Part shown: positions 3,006 to 32,879 of the stretch, piece by piece
Numbering within the stretch: the first letter of the stretch is position 1
Layout of the letters: each line of letters starts with the position of its first letter
NCBI GenBank assembly: GCA_963728945.1
Contig: CAVSMA010000002.1
Location: 738,723 to 802,722, forward strand
Source of the DNA: an uncultured Actinomycetota bacterium
GTDB lineage: Bacteria; Actinomycetota; Actinomycetes; Mycobacteriales; CADCTP01
Reading direction: 5' to 3'
Length of the DNA: 64,000 nucleotides
Program-made: the position numbers and the translations under genes
Notes under the pieces: generated by a model
Seen by the model: only the letters and a program-made list of their open reading frames with translations
What the model was told of the DNA's origin: nothing
Database searches by the model: none

Positions 3006-3152
3006 CCGGACACCGTACGGCCCGGTCAGGTCACGATGCGGTTACGAGGAGCCGCCTTACCCGTGGTCGGATGTCCCGTTCATCCAACACTCGCTGGTAA
3101 CCTCCGCCCACCTGATCATGGGTCGGCCGGTTGGGGCGATGAGGGGAAGGCC

Positions 3153-14744: not shown

Positions 14745-14809
14745 CCTGCCTGGCCAGCCGTACCGGTTTGAAGCCGCGATCCGGGATCGGATACAGTCTT
14801 CTACGCGCT

Positions 14810-14882
14810 GCGGACGTGGCTCAGTTGGTAGAGCATCACCTTGCCAAGGTGAGGGTCGCGGGTTCGAATCCCGTCGTCCGCT
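14810..14882 (+). tRNA. tRNA-Gly (GCC)
   Basis: The acceptor is gcggacg/cgtccgc. The anticodon arm is tcacc-ttGCCaa-ggtga. The T-loop is ggttcgaatcc. Confidence 0.93.
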
Positions 14883-14934
14883 CGGAGACGCCCTCGGGTG
14901 TCCTGTCGGTCTCCCGAGGTCACTCGGGCTTCCT

Positions 14935-15006
14935 GGCGGAGTGGCCGAGTGGCATAGGCAAGGGCCTGCAAAGCCCTGTACGCGGGTTCGATTCCCGCCT
15001 CCGCCT
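14935..15006 (+). tRNA. tRNA-Cys (GCA)
   Basis: The acceptor is ggcggag/ctccgcc. The anticodon arm is agggc-ctGCAaa-gccct. The T-loop is ggttcgattcc. Confidence 0.92.
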
Positions 15007-15007
15007 C

Positions 15008-15082
15008 GGGCGCTTAGCTCAGCGGGAGAGCGCTTCCCTGACACGGAAGAGGTCACTGGTTCAATCCCAGTAGCGCCCACCA
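15008..15082 (+). tRNA. tRNA-Val (GAC), CCA encoded
   Basis: The acceptor is gggcgct/agcgccc. The anticodon arm is cttcc-ctGACac-ggaag. The T-loop is ggttcaatcc. The 3' end is acca. Confidence 0.93.
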
Positions 15083-15089
15083 GTGACTG

Positions 15090-15126
15090 GTGGCCCCGGT
15101 CCGCGGAAAGCGCGGACCGGGGCCAC
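15090..15126 (+). terminator. strong hairpin after the tRNA cluster
   Basis: GTGGCCCCGGTCCGCG-gaaag-CGCGGACCGGGGCCAC forms a 16-bp perfect stem. Confidence 0.7.
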
Positions 15127-15281
15127 TCGTCATGCCGGCCGCGGGGGCGACCCCCGCGGGCCCCGCGTTCCGGCCGGCGGCGGTCGGCACCCTGGTTCCG
15201 GCACGCCGGTACCTGAGCGGCGTGACGTGCTGGAGCGGGCCCTGCGGCGACCGGTCGGCCGGGCCGGAGGGCCCGGGCCGG

Positions 15282-17418: not shown

Positions 17419-18951
17419 ATGCGGACGATTCTCGTCAACGGCGACGGGCTCGCACTCGACGACGTGGTGGACGTGGCCCGGCAGCGGGCCAGGGCCGAGC
17501 TCGGCCCGGACGTGCCCAGGCGGATGGCGGCCGCCCGCCGGGTCGTCACCGACGCGGTCGAGCGCGGCGCGGTCGTGTACGGGGTGAGCACCGGGTTCGG
17601 CGCGCTCGCCGACGTCTCGGTGGCCCGCGAGGACCTGGAGGCGATGCAGCTGGCGCTGGTCCGCTCGCACGCCGCCGGCACCGGCGAGCCGCTGCCCGCG
17701 GACGCGGTCCGGGCGCTGCTCCTGCTGCGGGCCCGCACGATCGCCGCCGGCGCGTCCGGCTGCCGCCCGGAGCTGCCGGAGCGGCTGCTCGAGCTGCTCG
17801 ACCGCGACCTGCTGCCGACCGTGCCGGCCAAGGGGTCGGTCGGCGCGTCCGGCGACCTGGCCCAGCTCGCCGCGGTCGCGCTGCCGCTGGTCGGCGAGGG
17901 CCTGCTGGACGGCCGGCCGGCCGCCGGGGTGCTCGCCGCCGAAGGACTCGCTCCGCTGGTGCTCGCCCCGAAGGAGGGGCTCACGCTCATCAACGGCACG
18001 GAGCCGATGCAGGCGCTGCTCGCGCTCGCGGTGGCCGACGCCGAGGGGCTGGCCCGGGCCGCCGACGTGGCGTGCGCGCTGTCGGTGGAGGCGCTGCTCG
18101 GCACCGACCGCGCGTACGACGACCGGGTGATCCGCATCCGGCCGCATCCAGGGCAGCTCGCCAGCGCCGACAACCTGCGCCGGCTGCTCGCGCACAGCCC
18201 GCTGCTGGCCAGCCACCGGCACTCCAACCACGCCGTCCAGGACCCGTATTCGCTGCGTTGTGCGCCACAGGTGCACGGCGCCTCCCGCGACGCCATCGCG
18301 TACTGCCGGCGGGTCGTGGAGATCGAGCTCGCGTCGGTCGTGGACAACCCCGTCGTCGTCGACGAGATCGACGGCGACGGGTACGAGGTGATGTCGACCG
18401 GCAACTTCCACGGTCAGCCGCTGGCGTTCGCCGGCGACATGCTGGCGATGGCGGCGGCGGAGCTGGGAAGCATCAGCGAGCGGCGGGTCTATCGGCTGCT
18501 CGACCCGGCGACCTCCCGCGGCCTGCCGCCGTTCCTCGCCCGCCGGGCCGGGACGAACTCCGGCTTCATGCTCGCCCAGTACACGGCCGCGTCGCTGGTG
18601 GCCGAGAACAAGGTGCTGGCCCATCCCGCCGGCGTGGACAGCATCCCGACCAGCGGCAACCAGGAAGACCACGTGTCGATGGGCTGGCACGCCGTCCGCA
18701 AAGCCGGTGAGGTGCTCGAGAATGTGTCGACCGTCCTCGCGGTCGAGCTGCTCTGCGCCGCCCAGGCCATCGACCTGCGGGCGGACACAGCGGTGCCGGG
18801 GCCGGCCGCGTCGGGCGTGCACGCGCTCATCCGCGCGCACGTGCCGGCGATGGACGTCGACCGGCAGGTCACCCCGCAGATCGAGGCCGTCCGCGCGATG
18901 CTGCCGGAGCTGGTCGCCGCGGCCGAGGAGGTCACCGGGCGGTTGGCCTGA
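17419..18951 (+). CDS. hutH: histidine ammonia-lyase
   Basis: The MIO-forming motif is GSVGASGDLAQLA. Also present are YGVSTGFGALA and QEDHVSMG. Confidence 0.95.
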   Translation: MRTILVNGDGLALDDVVDVARQRARAELGPDVPRRMAAARRVVTDAVERGAVVYGVSTGFGALADVSVAREDLEAMQLALVRSHAAGTGEPLPADAVRALLLLRARTIAAGASGCRPELPERLLELLDRDLLPTVPAKGSVGASGDLAQLAAVALPLVGEGLLDGRPAAGVLAAEGLAPLVLAPKEGLTLINGTEPMQALLALAVADAEGLARAADVACALSVEALLGTDRAYDDRVIRIRPHPGQLASADNLRRLLAHSPLLASHRHSNHAVQDPYSLRCAPQVHGASRDAIAYCRRVVEIELASVVDNPVVVDEIDGDGYEVMSTGNFHGQPLAFAGDMLAMAAAELGSISERRVYRLLDPATSRGLPPFLARRAGTNSGFMLAQYTAASLVAENKVLAHPAGVDSIPTSGNQEDHVSMGWHAVRKAGEVLENVSTVLAVELLCAAQAIDLRADTAVPGPAASGVHALIRAHVPAMDVDRQVTPQIEAVRAMLPELVAAAEEVTGRLA

Positions 18952-18975
18952 GCACGCCGGGAACCCGCGAAGCGA

Positions 18976-20499
18976 CTACCGGTAGCGGGACGCGGTGTCC
19001 CGGGCCGGGTGCGCCCGGCCGGCCGGGCCGGTCGCGAACGCCTCCAGCAGCCGCGTCGTCACCCCGGTCACCACCCGGCGTACGACCGGGGTCGGCGAGT
19101 CGAGCCCGGCGACCCAGTCGCTGGTGCCCGAGTCGAACACGGCCGCGCCGGACCGGGTGGTGTAGTACGCCGCCTCGGCCGCGTCCGCCCGCCCGTCGCA
19201 GACCAGCGGGGAGTGGGTGAGCACCTCGATCGGCCGCGGCGTGGGCGCACCAAGGTAGACCCGGTCATACTCGGAGCCGACCAGGCCGGGCAGCCGGCTG
19301 CCGGCGGACAGCCCGAGCCCGGCGAACAGCCAGCTGCCCGGGTCGACCACGACCATCGGCGCGCGGACCGGGCTGCAACCGTAGTCGGTGCCGGTCAGGC
19401 TGCTCTCGTTGTCGCTGGACGGCGGGTCCCGCCACTGGGTCGTCACCTGCGCCGGGTCGGTACGGCCGATCGGGTCGGTGTCGTCCTTGTAGTTGATCTC
19501 GAGCCGGTCCGGGCCGACCGCGGTGCCGCCGAACCGGATCTTCCGGTAGATCGCGTTCGCCCCGAGGAACGCGACGTTGGTGCCGGCGTCACGGGCGCGG
19601 GTGAGCGCCGCCCGCATGTCCGGCGACCAGTACTCGTCGTGTCCGAGCGAGATCACCGCACTCGCGCCGGCCAGCAGGCCGGGGTCACGCTGCAGGTCGA
19701 CGTCGGTGGCGTAGCCGAGCCGAAGCCCGAGCTTCTCGGCGAGCGCGACCGCCGGCAGCTCGGCGCCGAGGAAGTCGGCCGTCCCGGCGCCGTAGTCGTA
19801 CGGCCGGTCGAACGTGACCGCGCGGGCCCGGTCGGCGCGGGCGCCGTCCGGTCCGTGGTAGAGGCTGTAGCCGCCCCAGGCGTTGTACGCCTGCCAGGTC
19901 GTGTCGGCGTTGACCAGCACCACCGCGCCCCGGTTGGTCGCCGTCCGGACGGTGAGCGGGACGAACCGGCGCAGCGCTCCGCGGTCGGTGTCCAGCCGGA
20001 GCAGGTAGTCGCCGGCCGGCCAGCCGGTGGTCGGCACGGTCAGCGTCGGCCGCCACGGCGCGCTCGGCGTGTGCGTCGGGCCGGTGACCCGGGCCGCCGC
20101 CTGCAGCCGGGTCGGCACCGGCGCCGACTGCCAGACCAGCCGCGCCCTCCTCCCGCCGTACCAGCCCATCCGGTACGCGCGGACCCGGACGTGGTGGGCG
20201 GTCGTCGAGACGAACAGCCGCACCGGCTGGCCGGGCAGCACGCTGTCGTGATCGGCGTAGCCCTCGACGTCGTGCTGGCCGCCCACCTTGACCACCGACC
20301 AGTTCGGGTCGCCGGGCCTGGCCCGCTCCGTGGCGGCCGGGAACGCCGGTGCCGCGGTCGGTCGGGCCGCCGGGCGGGTGGTGGCGGATGCGGTCCGGGG
20401 CGGCGGAGTCGGGCGCCCGGACGTGCAGCCGGCCAGCGCCAGCGCGGCCAGCGCTCCGGCGAGCAGGGCGCCTCGTCCTGGACGGGACCGGACGGTCAT
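18976..20499 (-). CDS. lipoprotein of the N,N-dimethylformamidase beta-subunit-like (DUF6605) family
   Basis: The start is chosen at [25 protein letters not shown] (lipobox). [34 protein letters not shown] is typical of the family, from memory. Confidence 0.65.
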
Positions 20500-20578
20500 C
20501 GGCACAGTGTGGCGGACCACCGAACGGTCCGGCCCGGCGCGGGCCGCAGCGCCGGCCGGGAGGGATACGGTCGGGCTC

Positions 20579-22269
<1,691 letters not shown>

Positions 22270-22270
<1 letters not shown>

Positions 22271-23467
22271 TGCCGCCGGTCGGGGACCTGCTGGTCCGGC
22301 GGGCCGGCCGGATCGTCACCAACGACGGCCCGCCGGTGCCCGGGCCGGCCGCGGTGTCGGTCCGCAACGGGGTGGTCGCCTGGATCGGCCCGGACGAGCG
22401 GGTGCCGTGGACGATCACCGACGCGCCCGAGCTGGACGCGGACGGCGCCTGCGTGCTGCCCGGGTTCGTCGACCCGCACACGCACGCGTTGTGGGCCGGC
22501 TCGCGGCGGGAGGAGTACGCCGCCCGGCTGGCCGGCGAGTCGTACACCGGCGGCGGCATCGCGTCGACCGTCGCCGCCACCACCGCAGCGCCCGACGACG
22601 AGCTCCTCGACCTGGCCGCGCTCCGGCTCGGGCGGATGGCCGCGAACGGCACGACGACCGTCGAGGTGAAGACCGGCTACGGGCTCGACCCGGCGGCGGA
22701 GCTGCGGCTGGTCGGGCTGGTACGCCGGCTCGCCGAGCGGGTGCCGCTCCGGGTCGAGCCGACCCTGCTGGCGCACGTGGTCCCGGCCGGGGTCGACCGC
22801 GGCCGCGCACGTCGCGGCGCTGGCCGGGCTCATGCCGGTGGCCGGCGACGCCGGCGCCCGATGGCTGGACGTGTTCTGCGACCGGGGCGCGTTCACGGTC
22901 GACGAGGCGCGGACGCTGCTGCGGGCCGGCGCCGCGGCCGGGCTCGGCGGCCGGCTGCACGCCGAGCAGCTCAGCCACACCGGCGCCGCCGCGCTGGCCG
23001 CCGAGGCCGGCTGCGCCTCCGCAGACCACCTGGAGCACGTCGACGAGGCCGGGGCGAAGGCGATGGCGGCGACCGGCGTGGTCGGCGTGCTGCTGCCGAC
23101 CGCGACACTGAGCACGCACGGGGGCTGGGACAACGCGCGGGTGCTGCGCGAGGCCGGGGTGACGCTCGCCCTCGGCACCGACTGCAACCCGGGCACGTCC
23201 TGGTGCGAGTCCGTCCCGTACGCGCTGCAGCTGGCGGCGCCGCTGCTCGGGCTGACCGTGCCGGAGGCGATCCGCGCCGCGACGGCCGGCGGGGGAGCGG
23301 CGCTGCGCCGGCCCGAGCTCGGCGTGCTGCGGTTGACCCACCCGGGCGACCTGCTGGTGCTGGAGGCGGAGCACGAGGCGGACCTGCTCGCCCACCTCGG
23401 CGCGCCCGCCGTCCGCACCACGATCGTCGGCGGAGTGCCGGTCTCCGGCGCCCGCACCATCCACTGA
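22270..23467 (+). pseudogene. hutI: imidazolonepropionase interrupted by an apparent +1 frameshift near 22798
   Basis: The N-terminal half (LPGFVDPHTHALWAGSR...LLAHVVPAGVD) is in the frame of 22270. The C-terminal half (AAAHVAALAGLMPVAGDAGARWLDVFCDRGAF...LHAEQL...ADHLEH...LGTDCNPGTS) is in the next frame and ends at 23467. Removing c at 22798 joins them seamlessly. Confidence 0.85.
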
Positions 23468-23702: not shown

Positions 23703-24806
23703 ATGCGGAGGCTGCCGGTGAGCGGAGTCGGCGACCGGGTGCGGCTGGCCGGGTTCTTCGCCCGGCTGGCGGTCAAGGAGCACCTGGCGCCACGGCTGCA
23801 CGTGCGACCCCTGGTGGCCGAGCTGTTCCTCACCGACAACTGCAACCTCAACTGCATCAGCTGCGCCTGCTGGCGCACCGTCACCCGGCGCGAGCTGGAC
23901 GGCGACGAGTGGCGCGGGGTGATCGACCAGATCGCGGAGCTCGGCATCCTGAAGGCCAACTTCACCGGCGGCGAGCCGTTGCTGCGCCGCGACGCCCCGG
24001 AGCTCATGGCGTACGCGCGGGACGCGGGAATTCGGTCGCTGCACGTGAACACCAACGCGATCCTGCTCGACGACCGCCGACTCGGCGCCGTGCTCGACGC
24101 CGGCGTGCGCTCGTTCAACGTGTCCGTCGACGGTCCGGACGCCGAGCAGCACGACCGGATCCGCGGTAAGTCCGGGGCATTCGACACGACCCTCGACGCC
24201 CTGCAGCGGCTGCTCGCCGGCCGCGACGAGCTCGACATGCGGGTACGGATGAACTACACGGTCATGCGCTCGACCGTGGCCGCGCTGCCGGAGATCATGC
24301 GGCTGGCGCAGCGACTGCGGGTGCAGCTCTACCTGAACCTGGCCACCGACCACACGTTCCTGTTCCGGGACGGTCAGGTCTCGATCGAGGCGCGGGTCGA
24401 CCAGGCGCAGGTCGACGCGGCGCTGACCGAGGTCGAACAGGTGCTGCGGGCCGACCGCCGGTTCCTGCCGCGCTACTCGGAGCTGGCGTATCTGCGCGGC
24501 CACTTCGCGGACCTGCTGCAGAAGCCGCTGCCGTGCGCCGAGTCGCAGCTGAAGCTGATGGTGCATTCGACCGGCGAGGTCGGCGGCTGCTGGGGACACG
24601 ACGCGACGGCGAACGTGCGCACCACGCCGCTGCGGGAGATCGTCGCCGGTGCCGCGTACCGGGACGAGCACGCGCGGCTCTTCCGGAAGGACTGCGTGGG
24701 CTGCGGCAGCAACTACGCGCTCAACCTGGCCTGGCGACCGCGGACGTACGCGGCCGACGTGCTGTGGCGGGCGGGCCGGCGATCGCTGGCTCCGGTCGCA
24801 GCGTGA
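23703..24806 (+). CDS. radical SAM enzyme with SPASM/twitch-like C-terminal cysteines
   Basis: The Cx3Cx2C motif is in LTDNCNLNCISCAC. FTGGEPLL is present. The C-terminal cysteines are PLPCAESQ...GEVGGCWGH and KDCVGCGSNY. Confidence 0.85.
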   Translation: MRRLPVSGVGDRVRLAGFFARLAVKEHLAPRLHVRPLVAELFLTDNCNLNCISCACWRTVTRRELDGDEWRGVIDQIAELGILKANFTGGEPLLRRDAPELMAYARDAGIRSLHVNTNAILLDDRRLGAVLDAGVRSFNVSVDGPDAEQHDRIRGKSGAFDTTLDALQRLLAGRDELDMRVRMNYTVMRSTVAALPEIMRLAQRLRVQLYLNLATDHTFLFRDGQVSIEARVDQAQVDAALTEVEQVLRADRRFLPRYSELAYLRGHFADLLQKPLPCAESQLKLMVHSTGEVGGCWGHDATANVRTTPLREIVAGAAYRDEHARLFRKDCVGCGSNYALNLAWRPRTYAADVLWRAGRRSLAPVAA

Positions 24807-25576
24807 GACCGAGCGCGCCCCTGTACGACGCGCTGGCCGCGGACTACGACGCCCACTTCGCCGCCCCGCACCGGCGCGCGTACGACGAGCTGGCCTGGGA
24901 GGTCTGCGCGGAGGTGATCGGGGCGGCTCCAGCGCACGTCGTGGACGTCGGGTGCGGGGTCGGACGGTGGGCGGCGCGACTGGTCTCGGCCGGGCACCGG
25001 GTGACCGGGATCGAGCCGGCTCCGGCGATGGCGGCCGCGGCCCGGCGCCGGCTCGCCGGCAGCGACGTCACGCTGGTCGAGTGCCGCCTGGAGGACGCCG
25101 CGCTGCGGTCCGGGTCGGCCGACGTGGTGCTCGCGATGGGGTCGCTGCAGTACACGCTCGACCCGGCCGCGGCGCTCGCCCGGTGCGCGGCCTGGCTGCG
25201 GCCCGGGGGCGCGATGTGCGTTCTGGTCGACTCGCGCCAGGCCCTGGTGCTGGAACTGCTCGCCGCCGGCCGGACCGATGAGGCACTGGAGTGCCTGGCG
25301 ACCCGGCGCGGGGTGTGGCAGGTCGGACCGCACGCCGCCGACCTGCACCTGCTCGACGCGGCCGAGCTGGCCGCGGCGGTGCGTGCCGCCGGCCTGGCGG
25401 TGGAGCGGCTGGCCGGCCTGCTCGTCGGCGCCTCGGCGCACGGCCGGGCCGGCCTGCTCACCCGCCTCGAGCGCGACTACCCGGCCCAGCTCGCCGCCGA
25501 ACGCCGCCTCGCCGCCGAACCCGCGCTGGCCGACCTCGGCAAGCAACTCCTCATCACCGCCCGCAAGCCCGCCTGA
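24803..25576 (+). CDS. class I SAM-dependent methyltransferase
   Basis: The GTG start overlaps the radical SAM stop (GTGA at 24803-24806). VVDVGCGVGRWAARL and LRPGGAMCVLV are present. Confidence 0.8.
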   Translation: MRPSAPLYDALAADYDAHFAAPHRRAYDELAWEVCAEVIGAAPAHVVDVGCGVGRWAARLVSAGHRVTGIEPAPAMAAAARRRLAGSDVTLVECRLEDAALRSGSADVVLAMGSLQYTLDPAAALARCAAWLRPGGAMCVLVDSRQALVLELLAAGRTDEALECLATRRGVWQVGPHAADLHLLDAAELAAAVRAAGLAVERLAGLLVGASAHGRAGLLTRLERDYPAQLAAERRLAAEPALADLGKQLLITARKPA

Positions 25577-25677: not shown

Positions 25678-27744
25678 TCAGCGCCGGGCGGCGGTCAGCG
25701 CCGCGAGGACTGCCATCGTGACGCGTTCGGCCTGGAGAGGTGACAGTTCCGAGGACATCGGCAGCGCGAGCGCCTCCCGGCCGAGCGCGTCGGAGACCGG
25801 CAGCGGCCCGGCCCGCTCCGCGTAGGGACCCCAGTCGTGCCAGTGCAGCGGGGGCGCGTAGTAGGGCTTGGTGCGGACGCCGAGCCGGTCGAGCTCGGCC
25901 GCCAGCCGATGCCGGTCGACCCCGCCGAATCGCGCCACCCAGTGGACGAACGCGTGCGCGTCGCCGTCGGCCACCTGCTGCGGCCGCACCCCCTCCACGG
26001 TCGCGAGCTCGGCGTAACGGGCGGCGACCGCCCGCCGCCGGTCGAGCAGCAGGTCGAGGTCCGCGAGCAGATCGAGCGCGGCCACCGCCGCGGTCTCGAC
26101 CATCGGCACCGACCGCAGCCAGTCGACCGGTGCCCGCAGCCGCTCGACCGCGTCGGCCGGCAGTGCCAGCGCGCCGCCGCTCCCGCCGGCGGAGACCACC
26201 TTCGCGAAGCTCAGCGAGTAGGCATGGGCGGCCGCCTGGGTGGCGACCGGGCGGCCCTGGTGCCGCGCCCCGACCGCGGCGGCGGAGTCGGCGACCAGCG
26301 GCACCCCGGCGTCCGCGCAGACCTTCGTCAGCGCCGTGTAGTCCGCCGGCGCGCCGAGTGCGTCGACCGCGACGACGACCGCCGCGTGGCCGCCGGCGAG
26401 CGCGGCCGCGAGCGAGTCGGGGTCCATCGTCCAGGTGTCCGGGCGCACGTCGCAGAACCGCAGCGTGTAGCCGAGCTGGGCCAGGATCTCGCCGGTGGCC
26501 GCGAAGGTGAACGAGGGCAGCACGCCGACGTCGCCCGGGCGGACCGGCCCCGCGACAGCCTGCACGGCCAGCCGCACCGCGGCCGAGCCGGACGCGGTCA
26601 GCAGCAGCGCCGAGTCTTCCGGCAGCGTCAGCTCGTCCCGCAGCCGGGTGGCCAGCTCGGTCGCCCAGCGCCCGCCCTTGACCCTGCCGGTGTCCAGGCA
26701 GGCCTGCATCCTGACGGCCACCAGGTCGGGCCGGCGCGGCCGCGGCGGCAGCACCACCGGCAGCGGCGGCGAGAACGCGGGCAACCGGTCGGCGGCGAGC
26801 CCGGTCACGAACGACCGCAGCGTCCGGTCGAGCCGAGCCGGCCCGTCAGCGGCACCGAGCCGCCGCCGGAACTCCTCCGTGTCGACCCGGCCGGACACGT
26901 CCAGCCGTGGCGGCGGGTCGACCGTCACCGGCACGTCGACGCCGAGCGTGTCCAGCACCAGCGCGGCGAGACAGGTCAGCGGCAGCGCGGCCAGCCCGGC
27001 GTCGAGCGTGCCCGGTTCGGCGTCGAGCACGACGGCGGCGAGGTCGTCGACCGGCAGGAAAGTCCGCACGGTGTCGGTGACGGCCAGCGGCAGCCCGGCC
27101 AGCGCCCGCCGGCTCAGCTGGGCGACCACGCGGTCCTGACCCGGACCGAACACGTTGGCCGCGCGCAGCACGGTCAGCCGGTCGGGCTCGACCACCGAGC
27201 GGACCAGCAGCTCCTGCGCCCGTTTGGACAGCGCGTAGGCCCAGCGGCCGCCCGGGTCGGCGGCTACCAGCTCCCGGCACAGCGCGGCCACCTGCCACGG
27301 CGGAGAGGGCCGGCGGGCGACCTCGAGCAGCGCCGCGCACCAGTCGGCGACGGTGGCGTCGTCGACCGGCAGCTCGCCGCCGGCCGGGCCGTGCACCTCG
27401 GCCGAGGAGACCAGCACAACCTGCCGGTCCGCCAGCGCTGGCAGCAGTCGTGCGGTCGTGACCGCGTTGTCGAGCACCAGCCGCCACGGATCGCCGGCGT
27501 GCCGGTCGCTGGCGCCGGCCGCGAGCACGACCGGCCCGGGTGGCATCTCGATCGGGTCGACCAGCAGGTCGACCACCCGCTGTTCGACCGACGCCGGCAG
27601 CCGCGACGGCGGCTGACGGATGCGGTCGAGACTGACCACCGGCCGTCCCGACCCGGTCACCCGCCGAGCGATCCCGGAGCCCACGAATCCGGCGCCGCCC
27701 ACGACAGTCACAGCCCCACGCTGCACCCGGCACCTCCCCGTCAT
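25678..27744 (-). CDS. fusion protein: N-terminal NAD-dependent epimerase/dehydratase (extended SDR) + C-terminal DegT/DnrJ/EryC1/StrS-type PLP aminotransferase
   Basis: SDR part: VTVVGGAGFVGSGIA, VSSAEVHG, and the YxxxK motif in YALSKRAQE. Aminotransferase part: LLTASGSAAVRLAV, VPLVADSAAAVGA, and the lysine motif SLSFAKVVSAGGSGGA. An alternative GTG start at 27726 is preceded by ggggagg. Confidence 0.8.
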   Translation of the reverse strand: MTGRCRVQRGAVTVVGGAGFVGSGIARRVTGSGRPVVSLDRIRQPPSRLPASVEQRVVDLLVDPIEMPPGPVVLAAGASDRHAGDPWRLVLDNAVTTARLLPALADRQVVLVSSAEVHGPAGGELPVDDATVADWCAALLEVARRPSPPWQVAALCRELVAADPGGRWAYALSKRAQELLVRSVVEPDRLTVLRAANVFGPGQDRVVAQLSRRALAGLPLAVTDTVRTFLPVDDLAAVVLDAEPGTLDAGLAALPLTCLAALVLDTLGVDVPVTVDPPPRLDVSGRVDTEEFRRRLGAADGPARLDRTLRSFVTGLAADRLPAFSPPLPVVLPPRPRRPDLVAVRMQACLDTGRVKGGRWATELATRLRDELTLPEDSALLLTASGSAAVRLAVQAVAGPVRPGDVGVLPSFTFAATGEILAQLGYTLRFCDVRPDTWTMDPDSLAAALAGGHAAVVVAVDALGAPADYTALTKVCADAGVPLVADSAAAVGARHQGRPVATQAAAHAYSLSFAKVVSAGGSGGALALPADAVERLRAPVDWLRSVPMVETAAVAALDLLADLDLLLDRRRAVAARYAELATVEGVRPQQVADGDAHAFVHWVARFGGVDRHRLAAELDRLGVRTKPYYAPPLHWHDWGPYAERAGPLPVSDALGREALALPMSSELSPLQAERVTMAVLAALTAARR

Positions 27745-27855
27745 CCCGGACCAACCGTCCCGAACCCGGGGGACAACCTATCCCCTTCCGGACCTGACGG
27801 GACATCCTTGCTACGTTCCTGCACGTCATGTCTGTGATCGACCTAGGGTGTCGGA

Positions 27856-28308
27856 GTGCCGCGCGTGCTGCTCGTCTCGTCCAGCGGCGGCGTACTACCC
27901 GACCTGCTTGCACTCCGACCGTGGTGGGGCCGGTACGACGTCAGCTGGGTCGCGGTGAACGCTCCGGACACACGCGAACTGCTGGCGGGCGAGCGGGTTC
28001 GCTGGACACCGGAGCTGAGCCCCGGCCGGCCGGACCGGCTGCTGGCCGCGGTCCCGGCCGCGCGGGCGGCCCTGCGCGCCTCCCGGGTCGATCTCGTTGT
28101 CTCCGCGGGCAGCGGCGTCGCCGTGCCCTGGTTCCTCGCGGCGCGTACCACGGGCGCGCGGGCGGTGTGGGTGGAGACGTTCAACATCGTCGACCGTGCG
28201 GGGCTGGCCGCCCGGCTGTGCGCCCGACTGGCCAGCCACGTCGTCGTGCAGCGGCCGCACCTGCTCGGCCGGCACCGGCGGGCGGTTGCCGTCGGGGAGC
28301 TGTGGTGA
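27856..28308 (+). CDS. Alg14-like glycosyltransferase accessory/membrane-association subunit (PssD/Cps14F-like)
   Basis: VLLVSSSGGVL, DLVVSAGSGVAVPWFLAAR and VWVETFNIVDRAGLAARL...VVVQRPHL match the Alg14 layout, from memory. Confidence 0.7.
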   Translation: MPRVLLVSSSGGVLPDLLALRPWWGRYDVSWVAVNAPDTRELLAGERVRWTPELSPGRPDRLLAAVPAARAALRASRVDLVVSAGSGVAVPWFLAARTTGARAVWVETFNIVDRAGLAARLCARLASHVVVQRPHLLGRHRRAVAVGELW

Positions 28309-29540
28309 GTTCGGTCTTCGTCACGGTCGGGATGGGGCCCTGGCCGTTCGACCGGCTGGTCCGGGCGGTCTCGCCGCTCTGTTCCGAGCACGACGTATTC
28401 GTCCAGACCGGCACGTCGTCGGTGGTGCCGCCGTGCCCGTACGAGCGATTCCTGGGGCCGGCCGAGACACTGCGCCGGATCACGGACGCCGACGTCGTCG
28501 TCACCCACGGCGGCAACACCGTGCGGCTCGCGCAGCGCGCCGGGAAGGTGCCGATCGCGGTCGCTCGGGAGGCGGCGCGCGGGGAGATGCGCAACGACCA
28601 CCAGGTCGCTTACCTGGCGACGGAGCTGGCCGGCGGCCGGATCCGCGTGCTCACCGGGGACCGGCCGGCGCTGGCCACCGCGGTCGGGGACCATCCGGCC
28701 GTACAGTCCCGGATGCTCGCCGCCGCCCCGCCGCTGCCGCCGCCGGCGGACCCGGTCCGGGTGGTCGAAGCGCTGGACGCCGCGCTGTCGCCGGCCGGTG
28801 GACCGTTCGATCGGCACCCGCTGGCCCGCTACCGGTGGGCCTGGGGCCAGCTCGCCGCCCGCACCGGCCGGCACCTCGACCTGGGCGTCGGTGACGGGAC
28901 GTTCACGGCCGCGCTGCACCGGGAGACCAAGCTGGACGTGGTGGCCGTCGATGCCCACCCGAGCTATCTCAACGAGCTGCGCGCAGCCGAACCTCACCTC
29001 CCGCTGGGCCGGGTCGGGGCCGCGCTGCCGTTCGCGAGCGGCGCCTTCGACTCGGTCAGCGCGCTGGACGTGCTCGAACACGTCGCCGACGAGGCCGGGA
29101 CGCTGGCCGAGTTGCACCGCGTGCTGCGCCCGGGCGGCCTGCTGGTGCTCACCGTCCCCGCGCGGCATGCGTTCTCGGTGCTCGATCCCGACAACGCCAA
29201 ACTCACGCTGCCGCGCCTGCACCGGGCGGTCTACCAGCGCCGGTTCGGCCGGGCCGAGTACGAGCGGCGGTTCGTCGACGCGGCGAACGGGCTGCGCGGC
29301 GACATGGCCTGGGATCGGGCGGAGCACACGAACTACCGGGCGACCGAGCTGCTCGCCGCGCTGTCCGCGGTCGGGTTCGAGCCGACCGTGCGGGACGGCG
29401 CCGGGCTCTACTGGCGGCTCCTGCAGGTGCCGGCGCTGCTGCTGCCCCGCCGCCTCGCCCGGCTGCTGGACGCCCCGCAGCGGCTGGACGCCCGGCTGTT
29501 CCACCGGGCCAACCTCTTCCTCACCGCGACCCGCCGCTGA
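28305..29540 (+). CDS. fusion: Alg13-like glycosyltransferase catalytic half (Glyco_tran_28_C; PssE/Cps14G-like) + class I SAM methyltransferase
   Basis: There is a GTGA overlap with the Alg14-like gene. GT half: VFVTVGMGPWPFDRLV, VVVTHGGNTV, GKVPIAVARE...NDHQ. MT half: HLDLGVGDGTF, FDSVSALDVLEHV, LRPGGLLVLTVP. Confidence 0.7.
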   Translation: MSSVFVTVGMGPWPFDRLVRAVSPLCSEHDVFVQTGTSSVVPPCPYERFLGPAETLRRITDADVVVTHGGNTVRLAQRAGKVPIAVAREAARGEMRNDHQVAYLATELAGGRIRVLTGDRPALATAVGDHPAVQSRMLAAAPPLPPPADPVRVVEALDAALSPAGGPFDRHPLARYRWAWGQLAARTGRHLDLGVGDGTFTAALHRETKLDVVAVDAHPSYLNELRAAEPHLPLGRVGAALPFASGAFDSVSALDVLEHVADEAGTLAELHRVLRPGGLLVLTVPARHAFSVLDPDNAKLTLPRLHRAVYQRRFGRAEYERRFVDAANGLRGDMAWDRAEHTNYRATELLAALSAVGFEPTVRDGAGLYWRLLQVPALLLPRRLARLLDAPQRLDARLFHRANLFLTATRR

Positions 29541-29590
29541 TCCGCGGCTGATCCGGCGCTGATCCGGCGCTGATCCGGCGCTGGTCTGCG
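29536..29590. repeat. 11-bp tandem repeat x5 (gctgatccggc) starting in the stop codon of the GT-MT gene
   Basis: The units are gctgatccgcg, gctgatccggc, gctgatccggc, gctgatccggc and gctggtctgcg. The repeat fills the whole 51-bp gap between two convergent genes. Confidence 0.85.
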
Positions 29591-29591
29591 G

Positions 29592-30020
29592 TCAGCTGAA
29601 GTCGCCGTGCAGGAGCAGGTCGAGCTCGGCGTCGAGGTCGACGTACCGCGCCTCGTCCCCGGGTGGCACGACCTCGTGGCACCGGTCGACGAACCCCGCG
29701 AGCACCGCCCGCGGCACGGCGAGCAGCGCGCGGCCGGACGGCGACCGCAGCTCGATATACACCGGTCCGGTCAGGTCGTCCAGCGCCGGCCAGATCCGCA
29801 CGTCGCCGTCGCCCGCCGGCTCGGTCAGGCCGTCGGCGGCGAGCGAGCGGGCGAAGATCCACTCGATCGGATCGCGACCGGACGGAGTCAGGAAGGACAG
29901 ATGGATCGCGTACGGGTCATCGCGGTCGTAGCGGAGCGATGCCTCGACGAAGACCTCAGCACGCGGCATCACGAGCCATAAGGTGACAGCCGTACGGACT
30001 TCGGATACTCGACCGTTCAT
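29592..30020 (-). CDS. ssgB: SsgA/SsgB-family sporulation/cell-division protein
   Basis: LRYDRDDPYAIHLSF, IEWIFARSLAADGL, GDGDVRIWP and PPGDEARYVDLDAELDLLL closely follow the SsgB pattern. The start is ATG 30020, preceded by ggggggaa. Confidence 0.85.
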   Translation of the reverse strand: MNGRVSEVRTAVTLWLVMPRAEVFVEASLRYDRDDPYAIHLSFLTPSGRDPIEWIFARSLAADGLTEPAGDGDVRIWPALDDLTGPVYIELRSPSGRALLAVPRAVLAGFVDRCHEVVPPGDEARYVDLDAELDLLLHGDFS

Positions 30021-30168
30021 TCGTTCCCCCCGTGCATGACTTCTTACCACGCGTGACTGCGTCCGCAACGCCAGTCAACCCGGATCGGTAAGGTGTCGCC
30101 CGTCGAAGACAGCGATTCGCGAACCGGTGTGCCCCGTGTCGCGAAGACTTGTCGTGGAGAGCGCCGTC

Positions 30169-30789
30169 ATGGAGAGGCCCCCTGCGCTGCCGCCCGAGAC
30201 CGATGTCTCGGACGGCATGCTGGTGCGCCGCCTCACCGACGGTGACAACGGGGCGCTCGAAGCGCTCTACGACCGGTACGTCCGGCCGGCGTTCGCGCTG
30301 GCCAGGCGGATCACCGGGGACGCCGCGTTCGCCGAGGAGGTGGTCCAAGAGGTCTTCCTGGCCCTCTGGCGGGACCCGGCCAAGTACGACCCGCAGCGCG
30401 GCGGGTTCCCGAGCTGGTTGCTCGCGGCGACCCACCACAAGGCTGTGGATGCGGTGCGCCGGGAGCAGTCGGTGCGCTCGCGGCGGGCAAGCCTGGCCGA
30501 GGAGGCGCACTACTACACCGCGGCCGGCGCGAGCGACCTGCCGCCGGTCGAGGACGCGGCCTGGGCCGGGCTGCGCGGCGAACGGGTACGCGCGGCGTTG
30601 TCTGCGCTGCCGCCATCGCAGCGGGAAGCGATCGTGCTGGCCTACTACGCCGGCTATACCCAGTCGGAGATCGCGGAGCGCACGGGGGCGCCGCTCGGCA
30701 CAGTAAAGACGCGCATGCTGGCGGCCATGCGTCGGCTTCGTCTGCTCCTCGACGAGGTCGCCGACCCCACGGAAGGGGGTCGGCCGTGA
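30169..30789 (+). CDS. ECF (group IV) sigma-70 factor, SigK-like
   Basis: Region 2 is AEEVVQEVFLALWR...WLLAATHHKAVDAVR. Region 4 is REAIVLAYYAGYTQSEIAERTGAPLGTVKTRM. ATG 30169 follows ggagag. Confidence 0.85.
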   Translation: MERPPALPPETDVSDGMLVRRLTDGDNGALEALYDRYVRPAFALARRITGDAAFAEEVVQEVFLALWRDPAKYDPQRGGFPSWLLAATHHKAVDAVRREQSVRSRRASLAEEAHYYTAAGASDLPPVEDAAWAGLRGERVRAALSALPPSQREAIVLAYYAGYTQSEIAERTGAPLGTVKTRMLAAMRRLRLLLDEVADPTEGGRP

Positions 30790-32063
30790 GCGAGCCCATC
30801 GACCCCCGCGAGCAGCTCGGCGAGCACGCCGAGTGGGATGCGCTCGCCGTCGCCTGGGCGCTGTCGGCGCTCGACCCCGAGGACGAGGAGCGCTTCGCCG
30901 AGCACCTGCCGGGGTGCACACGCTGCACGGCAACCGTGCGGGAGTCGCTCTACACGGTCGCGGATCTCGCGTACGCGCTGCCCGACGAGGCACCGCCTCC
31001 CTCGCTGAAGGCGAGGCTGATGGCGGCGGTCGCGGCCGAGCCGCGGACACCCGGCGCGCCGCCGGAGCCCGAGGCGCCGGTGGAGCCGGAACCCGAACAG
31101 GAGTGGCCGCTCGGCGAGCCGCATCCTGGCAGCCCGGGGTACGGCATCGACTGGTTCGCCAGGCCCGCGCGCCCAGAACCCGGGCCTGACCAGGGGGACC
31201 TGGGAATCCACCAGCCGCCGGTCGGGGAGCGCCGGACCGGTCCGCAGCCGGCGCCGGCCGTCGACGCGCCCGCGACCGAGACGCGCCGCCCCGACCTGCC
31301 CCTCGCCCGCCCGCCGCAGCCCACCGCCGACCGCCCGCCGCAGCCCACCGCTGACCGCGCGCCGCAGCCCAGCGCCGACCGCGCGCCGCAGCCCGGCGCC
31401 GACCGCCCGCTGCAGCCCGGCGCCGACCGCCCGCCGCAGCCCAGCGCCGACCGCCCGCCGCAGCCTCCGGCCGCCGGTCCGACCCAGCCGCGGTCCACCG
31501 GAGAGCCCCCCGCCGACGAGGAGGCGACCGAGGTCGTCTCGCTGGGTGGACGTCGTCGCGGCGTGGTGCGGTGGGTCGCGATCGGGGTCGCCGCGGCCGC
31601 GGTGGTGGCGCTCATCGCGGGGCTGCTGGTTTCGAACGTCCACCTGCGCGACCAGAAGGACGACCTCCGCCGGGTCGTGGCCCAGCGAGACGCCGCGATC
31701 GCGCAGCTGACGGCCAACGGTCCGGCCAAGGTCGCCGCGCTGACCGCGGATGGCCAGCCGTCGCCCGACCGCCGCGCCACGCTCGTCGTCCGCGGCGACC
31801 ACATCGAGATCATCGTCGAGTCGCTGGGTCCGACGACCGGCAACGAGACGTACTGGCTGTGGACGCTGCGTTGTGACACACCGAAGCCCACCGACCTCAA
31901 GCCGATCCGCGGGTTCACCGTTACTCAGTCCGACTTCAGCGTGCGCGACATAGGATCGGACCCTGGAGTGGCCAGCGCGCCCTGCTTCGCGATCAGCTCG
32001 GAGGAGGGCACGGCGACTCCGAAGGCCCCACGGCAGGTCGTGGCGGTGGGGCGGCCCAGATAG
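30786..32063 (+). CDS. anti-sigma factor (zf-HC2 N-terminus, single TM, RskA-like extracytoplasmic domain) with Pro-rich repeat linker
   Basis: There is a GTGA overlap with the sigma gene. The Hx3Cx2C motif is in EHLPGCTRC. The TM helix is WVAIGVAAAAVVALIAGLLV. The C-terminal part contains ETYWLWTL. Confidence 0.75.
   Translation: MSEPIDPREQLGEHAEWDALAVAWALSALDPEDEERFAEHLPGCTRCTATVRESLYTVADLAYALPDEAPPPSLKARLMAAVAAEPRTPGAPPEPEAPVEPEPEQEWPLGEPHPGSPGYGIDWFARPARPEPGPDQGDLGIHQPPVGERRTGPQPAPAVDAPATETRRPDLPLARPPQPTADRPPQPTADRAPQPSADRAPQPGADRPLQPGADRPPQPSADRPPQPPAAGPTQPRSTGEPPADEEATEVVSLGGRRRGVVRWVAIGVAAAAVVALIAGLLVSNVHLRDQKDDLRRVVAQRDAAIAQLTANGPAKVAALTADGQPSPDRRATLVVRGDHIEIIVESLGPTTGNETYWLWTLRCDTPKPTDLKPIRGFTVTQSDFSVRDIGSDPGVASAPCFAISSEEGTATPKAPRQVVAVGRPR
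31308..31475 (+). repeat. 24-bp in-frame tandem repeat x7 encoding (D)RPPQPxA octapeptides
   Basis: The units are RPPQPTAD, RPPQPTAD, RAPQPSAD, RAPQPGAD, RPLQPGAD, RPPQPSAD and RPPQPPAA. Confidence 0.85.
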
Positions 32064-32535: not shown

Positions 32536-32607
32536 GGGCGATTGGCTCAGCGGGAGAGCGCCTCGTTCACACCGAGGAGGTCACTGGTTCGATCCCAGTA
32601 TCGCCCA
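32536..32607 (+). tRNA. tRNA-Val (CAC)
   Basis: The acceptor is gggcgat/atcgccc. The anticodon arm is cctcg-ttCACac-cgagg. The T-loop is ggttcgatcc. No CCA is encoded. Confidence 0.92.
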
Positions 32608-32879
32608 CCCGAGTGACCGGCGACCCCTGCCCACGGAGAGCGCGGGCCTGGGGTCAATCTTATGTCTGCCGCGGGCCGAGCCCCGCGGGCCCGCGTTCCG
32701 TCCGGTGGCGGATTGGGTGGTGGTTCCGGACCACGGGTCGCCTACGGATCACCGCGCCCGCCCGCGGGACCCGGCGGCGGCGTTGGGGTGGTTGTCCGGA
32801 TCACGCCAGGGCGGGCCGTCGGCGCGGGGCTGTCGGACGTGCGGGGGAAAGGTCGTCGGGCGGGGATAGCTTCTCGGGT

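What the first reader, a model, noticed from the sequence alone, without database searches (positions are those of the whole stretch)
27856..29540. Alg14/Alg13-type split glycosyltransferase whose catalytic half carries a C-terminal methyltransferase
The 150-aa Alg14-like gene and the 411-aa gene overlap by GTGA. The second protein has a Glyco_tran_28_C-like half (VFVTVGMGPWPFDRL, THGGNTV, NDHQ) for about 150 aa. A full class I SAM methyltransferase follows (DLGVGDGTF, DVLEHV, RPGGLLVLTVP). Covalently coupling glycosyl transfer to methylation is unusual. It suggests a methylated sugar or methylated acceptor as the product.
Basis: partly seen in the sequence, partly recalled or inferred. Interest (0 to 1): 0.55.

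Follow-up and report, generated by a model that had tools for sequence, protein, structure and literature searches.

The report
Split sugar-transferase fused to a methyltransferase
Two overlapping genes encode a two-piece sugar-transferring enzyme whose second piece is fused to a methyl-transferring enzyme, and they belong to an uncharacterised five-gene sugar-modification cassette found in many soil Actinomycetota and some Chloroflexota.

Summary
A 150-aa PssD/Alg14-like gene (27856-28308) overlaps by GTGA a 411-aa gene (28305-29540). That second gene is a PssE/Alg13-like donor-binding half followed by an intact class I SAM methyltransferase. Codon-position GC stays in one frame throughout. 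The fusion recurs full-length in 23 of 38 related loci, so it is not a frameshift artefact. In one clade (Micromonospora, Actinoplanes, Streptosporangiales, a Sphingobium MAG) the two halves are separate genes.

The pair is part of a five-gene cassette kept together in about 30 loci despite shuffled gene order. Its members are a radical SAM enzyme (nearest structures BlsE and DesII), a second methyltransferase, an SDR-DegT aminotransferase fusion (nearest DesI), the PssD-like gene and the PssE-methyltransferase gene. Subsets of loci add a small phosphoglycosyl transferase, a UDP-xylose-synthase-like SDR or a sulfotransferase.

The likely role is assembly of a methylated amino/deoxy-sugar glycoconjugate, probably on a polyprenyl-diphosphate primer. 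This role is inferred, not shown.

The pair departs from canonical Alg14/PssD. The essential GGH histidine is an invariant valine, there is no membrane anchor, and all HMM scores fall below curated cut-offs.

Verdict: a new variant of a known kind, of moderate interest.

The parts
27856..28308 (+). PssD/Cps14F/Alg14-like acceptor-side half of a split GT-B glycosyltransferase (150 aa; alternative start GTG 27865). N-terminal loop is SSSGGV instead of GSGGH. No transmembrane segment.
   Evidence: NCBIfam NF041549 E 1.8e-14 (54 bits, cut-off 110), WelK N-half 9e-13, Pfam Alg14 7e-5. 31% identity over full length to an NCBI-named PssD of L. plantarum. G11 G12 V13 invariant in 17 relatives. Maximum hydropathy 1.59.
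28305..28308 (+). GTGA start/stop overlap that couples the two genes translationally.
   Evidence: Read directly from the sequence. GGGGAG lies 6 nt upstream of the GTG.
28305..28790 (+). PssE/Cps14G/Alg13-like donor-binding half (aa 1-162 of the 411-aa protein).
   Evidence: NCBIfam NF041548 E 5.5e-11 and WelK C-half 6e-8. Invariant GMGPWPFDR, TH(G/A)GN and GEM.NDHQ, shared with L. plantarum PssE. Rossmann-like beta/alpha pattern at pLDDT 87-96.
28791..29540 (+). Class I SAM-dependent methyltransferase with a conserved C-terminal lid (aa ~163-411), then the TGA stop. The junction with the GT half is around ALS|PAGG|PFDRHPL.
   Evidence: Methyltransf_11 E 4.5e-17, above cut-off. Motif I HLDLGxGDG, D216, D255..EH and LRPGGLL are invariant or near-invariant; lid motifs are LDPDNAK, GLRGD, HTNY and DGANLFWR. 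Foldseek top hits are the sugar O-methyltransferases AtmM and RebM, E ~1e-13. The junction is inferred from the split forms.
23703..24806 (+). Cassette member: radical SAM enzyme (CxxxCxxC, plus C-terminal Cys residues) of the BlsE/DesII-like type.
   Evidence: Pfam Radical_SAM 6e-23. PDB sequence search: BlsE 1.3e-14, DesII 3e-5. AF2 pLDDT 86, and Foldseek top hits BlsE (TM 0.63/0.70) and DesII. Linked to the GT pair in ~30 loci.
24803..25576 (+). Cassette member: second class I SAM methyltransferase (MT2). Its GTG overlaps the radical SAM stop as GTGA.
   Evidence: Methyltransf_11 8e-20. Start and overlap read. Not a close paralogue of the fused methyltransferase. Always adjacent to the radical SAM gene.
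25678..27744 (-). Cassette member: fusion of an extended-SDR (epimerase/dehydratase-type) domain and a DegT/DnrJ/EryC1 sugar aminotransferase (688 aa), transcribed divergently from the GT pair.
   Evidence: Pfam Epimerase 1e-17 and DegT 2e-44. Best NCBIfam and PDB hits are DesI. Invariant GGxGFxG, SSxE, YxxxK and SFAK (PLP lysine).
27745..27855 (.). Divergent intergenic region between the aminotransferase fusion and the GT pair, presumed to hold promoters.
   Evidence: Inference from gene orientation only. The consensus scan found no sigma-70-like site.

Best explanation
The two genes encode a soluble or peripheral two-subunit GT-B glycosyltransferase of the PssD/PssE (Cps14F/G, Alg14/Alg13) lineage. 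The 150-aa protein supplies the acceptor-side Rossmann half. The first ~160 residues of the 411-aa protein supply the nucleotide-sugar-binding half. A class I SAM methyltransferase is fused to that half.

These points are shown:
- The domain identities.
- A single reading frame.
- Conservation of the fusion.
- A sister clade in which the same three modules are three separate genes, translationally overlapping where read (remote from each other in the Sphingobium MAG L026).
- Tight linkage to a radical SAM enzyme, a second methyltransferase and an SDR-aminotransferase fusion.

This mechanism is inferred:
- The SDR-aminotransferase makes an NDP-4-keto and then an NDP-4-amino sugar.
- The BlsE/DesII-like radical SAM enzyme further deoxygenates or rearranges that sugar ring.
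- A phosphoglycosyl transferase loads a primer sugar on polyprenyl phosphate. This gene is encoded next to the cassette in 8 related loci and must lie elsewhere in this genome.
- The PssD-like/PssE-like heterodimer adds the next sugar, as PssDE, Cps14FG and Alg13/14 do on lipid-PP-monosaccharides.
- The fused methyltransferase methylates the sugar just added (or its neighbour) before release, as a modification or as a chain-terminating cap.
For: - Domains and frame.
- Fusion conserved: the best 120 of 375 homologues are nearly all full length, 400-445 aa. 23 of 38 loci are fused, in Mycobacteriales-like MAGs, Kribbella, Nocardioidaceae, Kineosporia, Acidimicrobiales, Solirubrobacterales and Chloroflexota.
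- Natural split forms: the 15 split loci have the two halves in different frames. In the two read in full (L020, L024) the genes overlap. The split forms make one clade nested among fused ones.
- Cassette linkage: about 30 loci carry it, in at least three gene orders.
- Residue conservation: catalytic and cofactor residues are conserved in every domain.
- Methyltransferase fold: it is nearest to the sugar O-methyltransferases AtmM and RebM.
- Radical SAM and aminotransferase: the radical SAM enzyme is nearest to BlsE and DesII, and the aminotransferase is nearest to DesI.
- Accessory genes: a Bac_transf phosphoglycosyl transferase lies in or close to the cassette (abutting a cassette gene in five loci) in L016, L024, L025, L027, L032, L052/53 and L055. 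UXS-like SDR and sulfotransferase genes occur in other subsets.
- Family role: PssDE is a glucuronosyl-beta-1,4-glucosyltransferase acting on the und-PP-linked glucose primer (PMC7589315).
- Fusion precedent: WsaE combines methyltransferase and glycosyltransferase domains and makes a 2-O-methyl cap (PMC2943079).
Against: - No phosphoglycosyl transferase, flippase, polymerase or ligase is present in the 64-kb window, and none is in most actinobacterial loci.
- The histidine of the GGH loop is an invariant valine here. That histidine is essential in Agl24 and conserved in all Alg14, MurG and PssD (PMC8993221). The acceptor or the chemistry may therefore differ from lipid-PP-sugars.
- None of the five proteins has a predicted membrane segment.
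- The resemblance to AtmM/RebM is only marginally better than to many other small-molecule methyltransferases.
- pTM 0.62 means the relative position of the two domains is not defined.
- One locus (L032) has the cassette without the fused-type methyltransferase.
- No heterodimer model or experiment exists.
Confidence: 0.5

Rival explanations
1. The cassette makes a soluble small-molecule glycoside, such as a nucleoside-type or other secondary metabolite. The split transferase glycosylates a free acceptor, as BlsD or RebG do. The radical SAM enzyme and the aminotransferase then remodel the attached sugar, as BlsE and its partner aminotransferase do. The two methyltransferases decorate the product.
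For: - The radical SAM enzyme's best sequence and structure match is BlsE, which acts on cytosylglucuronic acid after glycosyl transfer (PMC3715490).
- The methyltransferase's best fold matches are RebM and AtmM, which methylate the sugar of a small-molecule glycoside.
- All five proteins lack membrane segments.
- The diphosphate-contacting GGH histidine is lost.
- Most loci carry no lipid-carrier genes.
Against: - No scaffold-forming genes (NRPS, PKS, nucleoside-forming), transporter or resistance gene is conserved with the cassette.
- A phosphoglycosyl transferase is recurrently adjacent in four lineages.
- The cassette sits among housekeeping genes in the window.
- The nearest characterised GT relatives all use lipid-PP-sugar acceptors (PMC8993221).
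Confidence: 0.22
2. The PssD-like/PssE-like pair has lost catalysis (His to Val). It serves as a sugar-nucleotide or glycan-binding scaffold that targets the fused methyltransferase to its substrate.
For: The GGH histidine, shown to be essential in Agl24 (PMC8993221), is valine in every member examined. HMM scores are below family cut-offs.
Against: The donor-side motifs are invariant across 40 divergent sequences: TH(G/A)GN, E94, N97 and H99-Q100. D38-T39, S83-A84-G85 and Q132 are invariant in the PssD-like half. This pattern is what selection on an active site would produce. The pair also persists without the methyltransferase in L032 and L034-L036.
Confidence: 0.08
3. The fusion has no mechanistic meaning. 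Two neighbouring, overlapping operon genes lost a stop codon, and the methyltransferase acts on a different step (for example on the nucleotide-sugar) independently of the transferase.
For: Split and fused forms both persist. In the Sphingobium MAG (L026) the methyltransferase gene lies 5.6 kb from PssE. The relative domain orientation is poorly defined (pTM 0.62).
Against: The gene order PssD-PssE-MT is kept in every split actinobacterial locus, with overlapping stop and start where the ORFs were read (L020, L024). The fused state is retained across deeply diverged lineages.
Confidence: 0.12
4. The 411-aa ORF is an assembly or sequencing artefact that joins two genes.
For: None beyond the existence of split forms in other genera.
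Against: GC3 is continuous in one frame. There are 23 independently assembled fused loci and more than 100 full-length metagenomic homologues.
Confidence: 0.01

Closest known systems
PssD/PssE of Rhizobium leguminosarum and Cps14F/Cps14G-type (EpsE/EpsF) pairs of lactic acid bacteria
   Same: - Two adjacent genes of ~150 and ~160 aa give the N- and C-halves of one GT-B enzyme.
- There is full-length homology: NCBIfam E 1.8e-14 and 5.5e-11, and 31% / 25% identity to the L. plantarum pair.
- The donor-side H-x-G, E and N-x-HQ motifs are kept.
   Different: - Scores are below the equivalog cut-offs.
- GSGGH has become SSSGGV.
- The C-half is fused to a methyltransferase.
- The pair is not embedded in a Wzx/Wzy-type polysaccharide locus. 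Instead it sits with a radical SAM enzyme, an aminotransferase and a second methyltransferase.
Eukaryotic Alg14/Alg13 and archaeal Agl24 (UDP-GlcNAc transferase making lipid-linked chitobiose)
   Same: The same split (or fused) GT-B lineage. There is a weak Pfam Alg14 hit. The catalytic donor half is recruited by a small partner.
   Different: There is no N-terminal membrane anchor. The essential GGH histidine is absent. The Pfam score is below gathering. The donor and acceptor are unknown.
WsaE of Geobacillus stearothermophilus (trifunctional methyltransferase plus two rhamnosyltransferase domains)
   Same: Methyltransferase and glycosyltransferase are covalently coupled on one polypeptide. 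In WsaE the methyltransferase methylates the sugar the enzyme installs and caps the chain (PMC2943079). WsaE is also a soluble protein.
   Different: In WsaE the methyltransferase is N-terminal and the transferase domains are complete and of other families. Here only the donor half of a split GT-B is fused, and the methyltransferase is C-terminal. No homology between the two proteins was tested.
RebG/RebM and AtmG/AtmM (glycosyltransferase followed by sugar O-methyltransferase in indolocarbazole pathways)
   Same: The fused methyltransferase's best structural matches are AtmM and RebM. The logic is glycosylate, then methylate the sugar.
   Different: The proteins are separate and the transferase is a different GT family. 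Identity is only 16-22%, and many other class I methyltransferases score nearly as well.
DesI/DesII (desosamine) and BlsE with its partner aminotransferase (blasticidin S)
   Same: The neighbouring genes pair a DegT-family PLP enzyme (nearest DesI) with a radical SAM enzyme (nearest BlsE and DesII). This suggests radical deoxygenation or amination of a pyranose ring.
   Different: Identity is 20-24%, and no equivalog-level match exists. The aminotransferase is fused to an SDR. The remaining desosamine or blasticidin genes are absent.

Membership tests
PssD/Cps14F family (NCBIfam NF041549) | Whole-protein HMM score at or above the curated cut-off (110 bits) | tested here: not met
   54.3 bits, E 1.8e-14, covering the whole model 1-151. 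It is a homologue, not an equivalog.
PssD/Cps14F family (NCBIfam NF041549) | A ~150-aa N-half encoded immediately upstream of, and coupled to, a PssE-type C-half | tested here: met
   150 aa with a GTGA overlap to the PssE-like gene. The arrangement matches the L. plantarum pssD locus.
Alg14 / MurG / Agl24 / PssD N-domain | G-loop with a conserved histidine (GSGGH / GGxGGH / GGH), essential in Agl24 | tested here: not met
   SSSGGV, with V13 invariant in 17 relatives. It aligns to the H of VGSSGGHL in L. plantarum PssD. The motif definition comes from PMC8993221.
Alg14 (Pfam PF08660) | Score at or above Pfam gathering (27 bits), and an N-terminal membrane anchor as in eukaryotic Alg14 | tested here: not met
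   23.3 bits. No hydrophobic segment: maximum KD(19) is 1.59, in the core strand/helix. The Alg14 anchor itself is from general knowledge.
PssE/Cps14G family (NCBIfam NF041548) / Alg13 | Whole-protein HMM score at or above the cut-off (120 bits) | tested here: not met
   42.6 bits, E 5.5e-11, residues 4-101. Pfam Glyco_tran_28_C gave no hit at E<0.1.
PssE/Cps14G family / Alg13 | Donor-binding motifs of the C-terminal GT-B half (H-x-G after beta4, and an acidic residue plus N-x-H-Q helix) | tested here: met
   H68, G70, E94, N97, H99 and Q100 are invariant in 40 sequences and shared with L. plantarum PssE.
PssDE / Cps14FG / Alg13-14 function | Heterodimer that transfers a sugar to a polyprenyl-diphosphate-linked monosaccharide | not testable with these tools
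   No multimer prediction or assay was available. Indirect support comes from an adjacent Bac_transf phosphoglycosyl transferase in 8 related loci.
Class I SAM-dependent methyltransferase (Pfam Methyltransf_11/23/25) | HMM score above gathering, glycine-rich motif I, acidic post-I residue, motif II/III and a Rossmann fold | tested here: met
   62.9 bits against 21.2. HLDLGxGDG, D216, D255 and LRPGGLL are conserved. The AF2 model has pLDDT 89, with more than 1000 methyltransferase fold matches.
Sugar O-methyltransferases of the RebM/AtmM type | A closer relationship to these than to other small-molecule methyltransferases, and a carbohydrate hydroxyl as the methyl acceptor | tested here: inconclusive
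   They are the top Foldseek hits (1.5e-13 to 2.8e-13), but TleD, MitM, PE N-methyltransferase and others lie within one to two orders of magnitude. By sequence they are not the top hits.
DesII/BlsE-type sugar radical SAM enzymes (neighbour gene) | CxxxCxxC cluster and a closest relationship to DesII/BlsE | tested here: inconclusive
   The cluster motif is present. BlsE and DesII are the top two fold hits, but SkfB, PqqE and SuiB follow closely. The NCBIfam BlsE model scores 57 bits against a cut-off of 400.

The most novel reading that the evidence does not exclude
The five-gene cassette is a self-contained, undescribed pathway. It comprises a His-less Alg14/13-type split transferase with a fused methyltransferase, a BlsE/DesII-like radical SAM enzyme, a second methyltransferase and an SDR-DesI-like aminotransferase. 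Under this reading it installs a new methylated amino-deoxy sugar on an envelope glycolipid or wall glycan in many soil Actinomycetota and Chloroflexota. The transferase would use a histidine-independent mechanism or a non-diphosphate acceptor, and the fusion would channel the nascent glycoside into methylation.
Probability: 0.35. Interest if true: 0.6.

Novelty: new variant of a known kind. Interest (0 to 1): 0.45.

Why it matters
Split Alg13/14-type transferases are models for how a catalytic half is recruited by a partner. This lineage differs in four ways. The partner lacks both the membrane anchor and the 'essential' histidine. The catalytic half drags a methyltransferase with it. The set is also locked to a sugar-type radical SAM enzyme and an aminotransferase.

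The cassette is small, has no characterised member and occurs in cultivable genera (Micromonospora, Kribbella, Actinoplanes auranticolor, Actinoallomurus soli). It is therefore a tractable route to a probably new methylated amino/deoxy-sugar glycoconjugate. It also offers a test of whether fusion gives substrate channelling between glycosyl transfer and methylation. It does not by itself overturn anything known.

Tried and rejected
- **Frameshift or missed stop.** Rejected by the GC3 frame plot and by conservation of the fusion.
- **Natural triple fusion (PssD-PssE-MT) to model the heterodimer.** The only long candidate, P0058 (537 aa), is a frameshifted read-through with a low-complexity tail.
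- **PDB sequence searches with each GT half.** These gave only MurG at E 0.3 and noise, so they were uninformative.
- **Foldseek on the whole fusion model.** The methyltransferase domain dominates the hits, so the GT half could not be scored separately.
- **hut genes, SsgA-like gene and the ECF sigma/anti-sigma pair as functional partners.** They are conserved only in the closest relatives L001-L004, which indicates synteny rather than function.
- **LCP (LytR-CpsA-Psr) gene next to the cassette in L054.** It is not found near any other cassette.
- **The two methyltransferases as recent paralogues.** They share motif-level similarity only.
- **Clustering of all flanking ORFs.** No further universally conserved neighbour emerged.
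- **Literature searches for the cassette or the fusion.** Nothing specific was found.
- **Promoter and terminator consensus scan.** It found nothing, as expected at 75% GC.
Full report
**Observation**

The window is about 75% G+C. ORF 27856-28308 (+, 150 aa) and the frame 28305-29540 (+, 411 aa from a GTG) overlap in the four bases GTGA. GGGGAG lies 6 nt before the second start.

A sliding count of third-position G+C shows gene 1 in its own frame up to about 28290. From there a single frame runs at 0.85-1.00 to 29500. There is no switch at the proline-rich linker.

**Domain identities**

- The 150-aa protein matches NCBIfam PssD/Cps14F end to end (E 1.8e-14). It also matches the N-half of the fused glucuronosyltransferase WelK (9e-13) and, weakly, Pfam Alg14 (7e-5).
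- Residues 4-101 of the 411-aa protein match PssE/Cps14G (5.5e-11), and residues 3-127 match the C-half of WelK (6e-8).
- Residues about 184-360 are a class I SAM methyltransferase (Methyltransf_11, 62.9 bits, cut-off 21.2).
- All the glycosyltransferase scores are below the curated cut-offs. Pfam Glyco_tran_28_C did not hit.

An NCBI-named PssD/PssE pair from a Lactiplantibacillus plantarum plasmid aligns over full length, at 31% and 25% identity. PssDE is the glucuronosyl-beta-1,4-glucosyltransferase that acts on the und-PP-linked glucose primer, and its genes are 459 and 477 bp (PMC7589315). Those sizes match the parts found here.

**The fusion is real, recurrent and has a natural split counterpart**

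The large protein search gave 375 hits. The best 120 are almost all 400-445 aa at about 99% coverage and 52-95% identity. JGI names several of them 'SAM-dependent methyltransferase/UDP-N-acetylglucosamine transferase subunit ALG13'.

In one genome per species, relatives occur in these groups:
- Mycobacteriales-like MAGs (78-89% identity, the window's own lineage)
- Kribbella, Nocardioidaceae, Jatrophihabitantaceae and Kineosporia
- Acidimicrobiales and Solirubrobacterales
- Micromonospora, Actinoplanes auranticolor, Actinoallomurus soli and Streptosporangiaceae
- A Sphingobium MAG

Further look-ups added Chloroflexota.

In Micromonospora sp. NBC_01392 and Actinoallomurus soli, the PssE part (about 164 aa) ends with a stop, and a separate 258-273-aa methyltransferase gene overlaps it. 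Across 38 loci, 23 are fused and 15 have the halves in different frames. In a neighbour-joining tree the split forms make a single clade nested among fused ones. One fission from a fused ancestor is therefore the most economical reading.

At 50%-identity resolution the family has 69 clusters at E<=1e-30. About nine of these are full-length fusions. Many others are stand-alone methyltransferases carrying the same C-terminal lid, or stand-alone PssE-like proteins.

**Conservation and model of the fusion**

A 40-sequence alignment shows these invariant features:
- Glycosyltransferase half: GMGPWPFDR, TH(G/A)GN and GEM.NDHQ.
- Methyltransferase half: motif I (HLDLGxGDG), D216, D255..EH and LRPGGLL.
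- Distinctive lid: LDPDNAK, GLRGD, HTNY and DGANLFWR.

The AlphaFold2 model has mean pLDDT 89, but pTM is only 0.62. Each domain is confident, while their mutual orientation is not.

Foldseek against the PDB is headed by the sugar O-methyltransferases AtmM and RebM (E about 1e-13). TleD, MitM and many other class I enzymes follow closely. By sequence the top PDB hits are generic methyltransferases.

**Departures from the canonical family**

The N-terminal loop of the PssD-like protein reads SSSGGV, with G11, G12 and V13 invariant in 17 relatives. It aligns to the GSSGGH of bona fide PssD.

The histidine of this GGH loop is stated to be present in all Alg14, MurG and Agl24 homologues, and it is essential in Agl24 (PMC8993221).

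No protein of the cassette has a predicted membrane segment, unlike eukaryotic Alg14, whose anchor is from general knowledge.

**Genomic context: a five-gene cassette**

tblastn of the window's neighbours against all loci shows that three further genes travel with the pair in about 30 loci:
- A radical SAM gene (23703-24806).
- A second methyltransferase (24803-25576, again with a GTGA overlap).
- A 688-aa fusion of an extended SDR and a DegT-family aminotransferase (25678-27744, minus strand).

Gene order differs between lineages. In the window the order is rSAM-MT2, then the aminotransferase fusion on the opposite strand, then PssD and PssE-MT. In Micromonospora the order is PssD-PssE-MT-rSAM-MT2, followed by the aminotransferase fusion on either strand. 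Linkage that survives such shuffling argues for shared function.

The hut genes, the SsgA-like gene and the ECF sigma/anti-sigma pair are shared only with the closest relatives. Clustering of all flanking ORFs found no other universal neighbour.

None of the cassette proteins reaches an equivalog-level NCBIfam model.

- **Radical SAM enzyme.** It is the best conserved member, at 60-96% identity. Its closest solved relatives by sequence are BlsE (1.3e-14) and PqqE, with DesII at 3e-5. By fold (model pLDDT 86, pTM 0.88) they are BlsE (TM 0.63/0.70) and DesII.
- **Aminotransferase.** Its closest relative is DesI, and it keeps the PLP lysine (SFAK).
- **SDR domain.** It keeps GGxGFxG, SSxE and YxxxK, with an insertion of about 30 residues.

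BlsE acts on a glucuronide after glycosyl transfer (PMC3715490). DesI and DesII act together on an NDP-4-amino-sugar; this is from my own knowledge of the desosamine pathway.

**Accessory genes in relatives**

- A small Bac_transf (PF02397) phosphoglycosyl transferase lies in or close to the cassette, abutting a cassette gene in five of these loci: two Chloroflexota-type loci (L052/53, L055), Solirubrobacterales (L016), Actinoallomurus (L024), and L025, L027 and L032.
- A UDP-xylose-synthase-like SDR (ASTSEIYGDP) is adjacent in ten loci.
- A sulfotransferase is adjacent in five, with weaker matches in three more.

None of these is in the 64-kb window.

**Interpretation**

These points are shown:
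- A PssD/PssE-lineage split GT-B exists here.
- Its donor half carries an intact methyltransferase.
- The association of the three modules is conserved, whether fused or not.
- The set is linked to sugar-type radical SAM, aminotransferase/SDR and methyltransferase genes.

These points are inferred:
- The cassette makes and transfers a modified amino/deoxy sugar.
- The fused methyltransferase methylates the transferred sugar or its neighbour.
- The acceptor is probably a polyprenyl-diphosphate-linked primer. The recurrent phosphoglycosyl transferase and the known role of every characterised relative support this.

Four things keep a soluble-glycoside pathway open as a serious rival: the missing histidine, the absence of membrane segments, the BlsE and RebM/AtmM resemblances, and the lack of carrier-lipid genes in most loci. 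Two lesser rivals are a catalytically dead scaffold and a mechanistically meaningless fusion.

**Comparison and novelty**

The thing works like PssDE/Cps14FG/Alg13-14 followed by a RebM-like sugar methylation. WsaE is a precedent for putting methyltransferase and glycosyltransferase on one chain (PMC2943079).

It is a homologue of the PssD/PssE families but fails their curated thresholds and the GGH criterion. I therefore file it as a new variant (a distinct subfamily and architecture), not as a member.

I found no paper describing the fusion or the cassette. Automated annotation already recognises both domains.

Interest is moderate. The fusion alone is a modest surprise. The conserved, uncharacterised cassette in cultivable actinomycetes is a good experimental lead.

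Noticed in passing
window 29531-29583: An 11-nt tandem repeat (GCTGATCCGGC-like, 4.8 copies) starts at the stop codon of the fusion gene. It fills the convergent intergenic gap to the SsgA-like gene. Each unit carries a TGA, so stops fall in all three frames. The closest relatives L001 and L003 have a single copy or no repeat, so this is a local expansion.
   Followed up: partly
window 31307-31465: A 24-nt repeat (6.6 copies, 93% matches) lies inside the anti-sigma factor gene (30786-32063). It encodes tandem DRPPQP(T/S)A-type octapeptides.
   Followed up: no
window 29592-30068 (-), 30127-30789 (+), 30786-32063 (+): An SsgA-family protein (nearest NCBIfam match SsgD, below cut-off) converges on the fusion gene. 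It is followed by an ECF sigma factor and an overlapping anti-sigma factor. These are conserved only in the closest relatives.
   Followed up: partly
window 17419-23467: Histidine-utilisation genes are present: hutH 17419-18951, hutU 20288-22270 and a hutI-like gene at about 22300-23467. A 565-aa gene on the opposite strand (18976-20673) sits between hutH and hutU and overlaps the annotated hutU N-terminus. The hutU start is probably further downstream. Gene identities were recognised from the translations and were not HMM-tested.
   Followed up: no
window 14810-15082 and 32536-32609: There is a tRNA cluster Gly(GCC)-Cys(GCA)-Val(GAC) and a separate tRNA-Val(CAC). A high-GC3 ORF on the minus strand (13710-15281) from my own ORF filter overlaps the tRNA cluster and is probably spurious there.
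   Followed up: no
window 3-4103: An AftD-type carbohydrate-binding module / F5_F8 domain protein is followed by a protein with a C-terminal PorA porin domain (PF11271, E 2e-87). This is consistent with a Mycobacteriales-like organism.
   Followed up: no
L055 13787-14740; L052 5121-6095 and 3082-4056; L016 80-634: A 317-324-aa protein with no Pfam match at E<0.1 sits next to the phosphoglycosyl transferase and aminotransferase in Chloroflexota-type and Solirubrobacterales cassettes. It may be a further accessory component of unknown fold.
   Followed up: partly
L032 10001-11586; L034-L036 9540-10500: One Streptosporangiaceae MAG has the cassette with PssE followed directly by the radical SAM gene and no fused-type methyltransferase in 14.9 kb. 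Three Actinoplanes/Paractinoplanes genomes keep only the PssD-PssE pair, with none of the other cassette genes within 10 kb.
   Followed up: partly
L054 11325-13418; L006, L008, L025, L032: A sulfotransferase (PF13469) lies immediately downstream of the fusion gene in several Propionibacteriales-like loci. In L054 alone it is followed by an LCP-family (LytR-CpsA-Psr) gene. This hints that some versions of the product are sulfated.
   Followed up: partly
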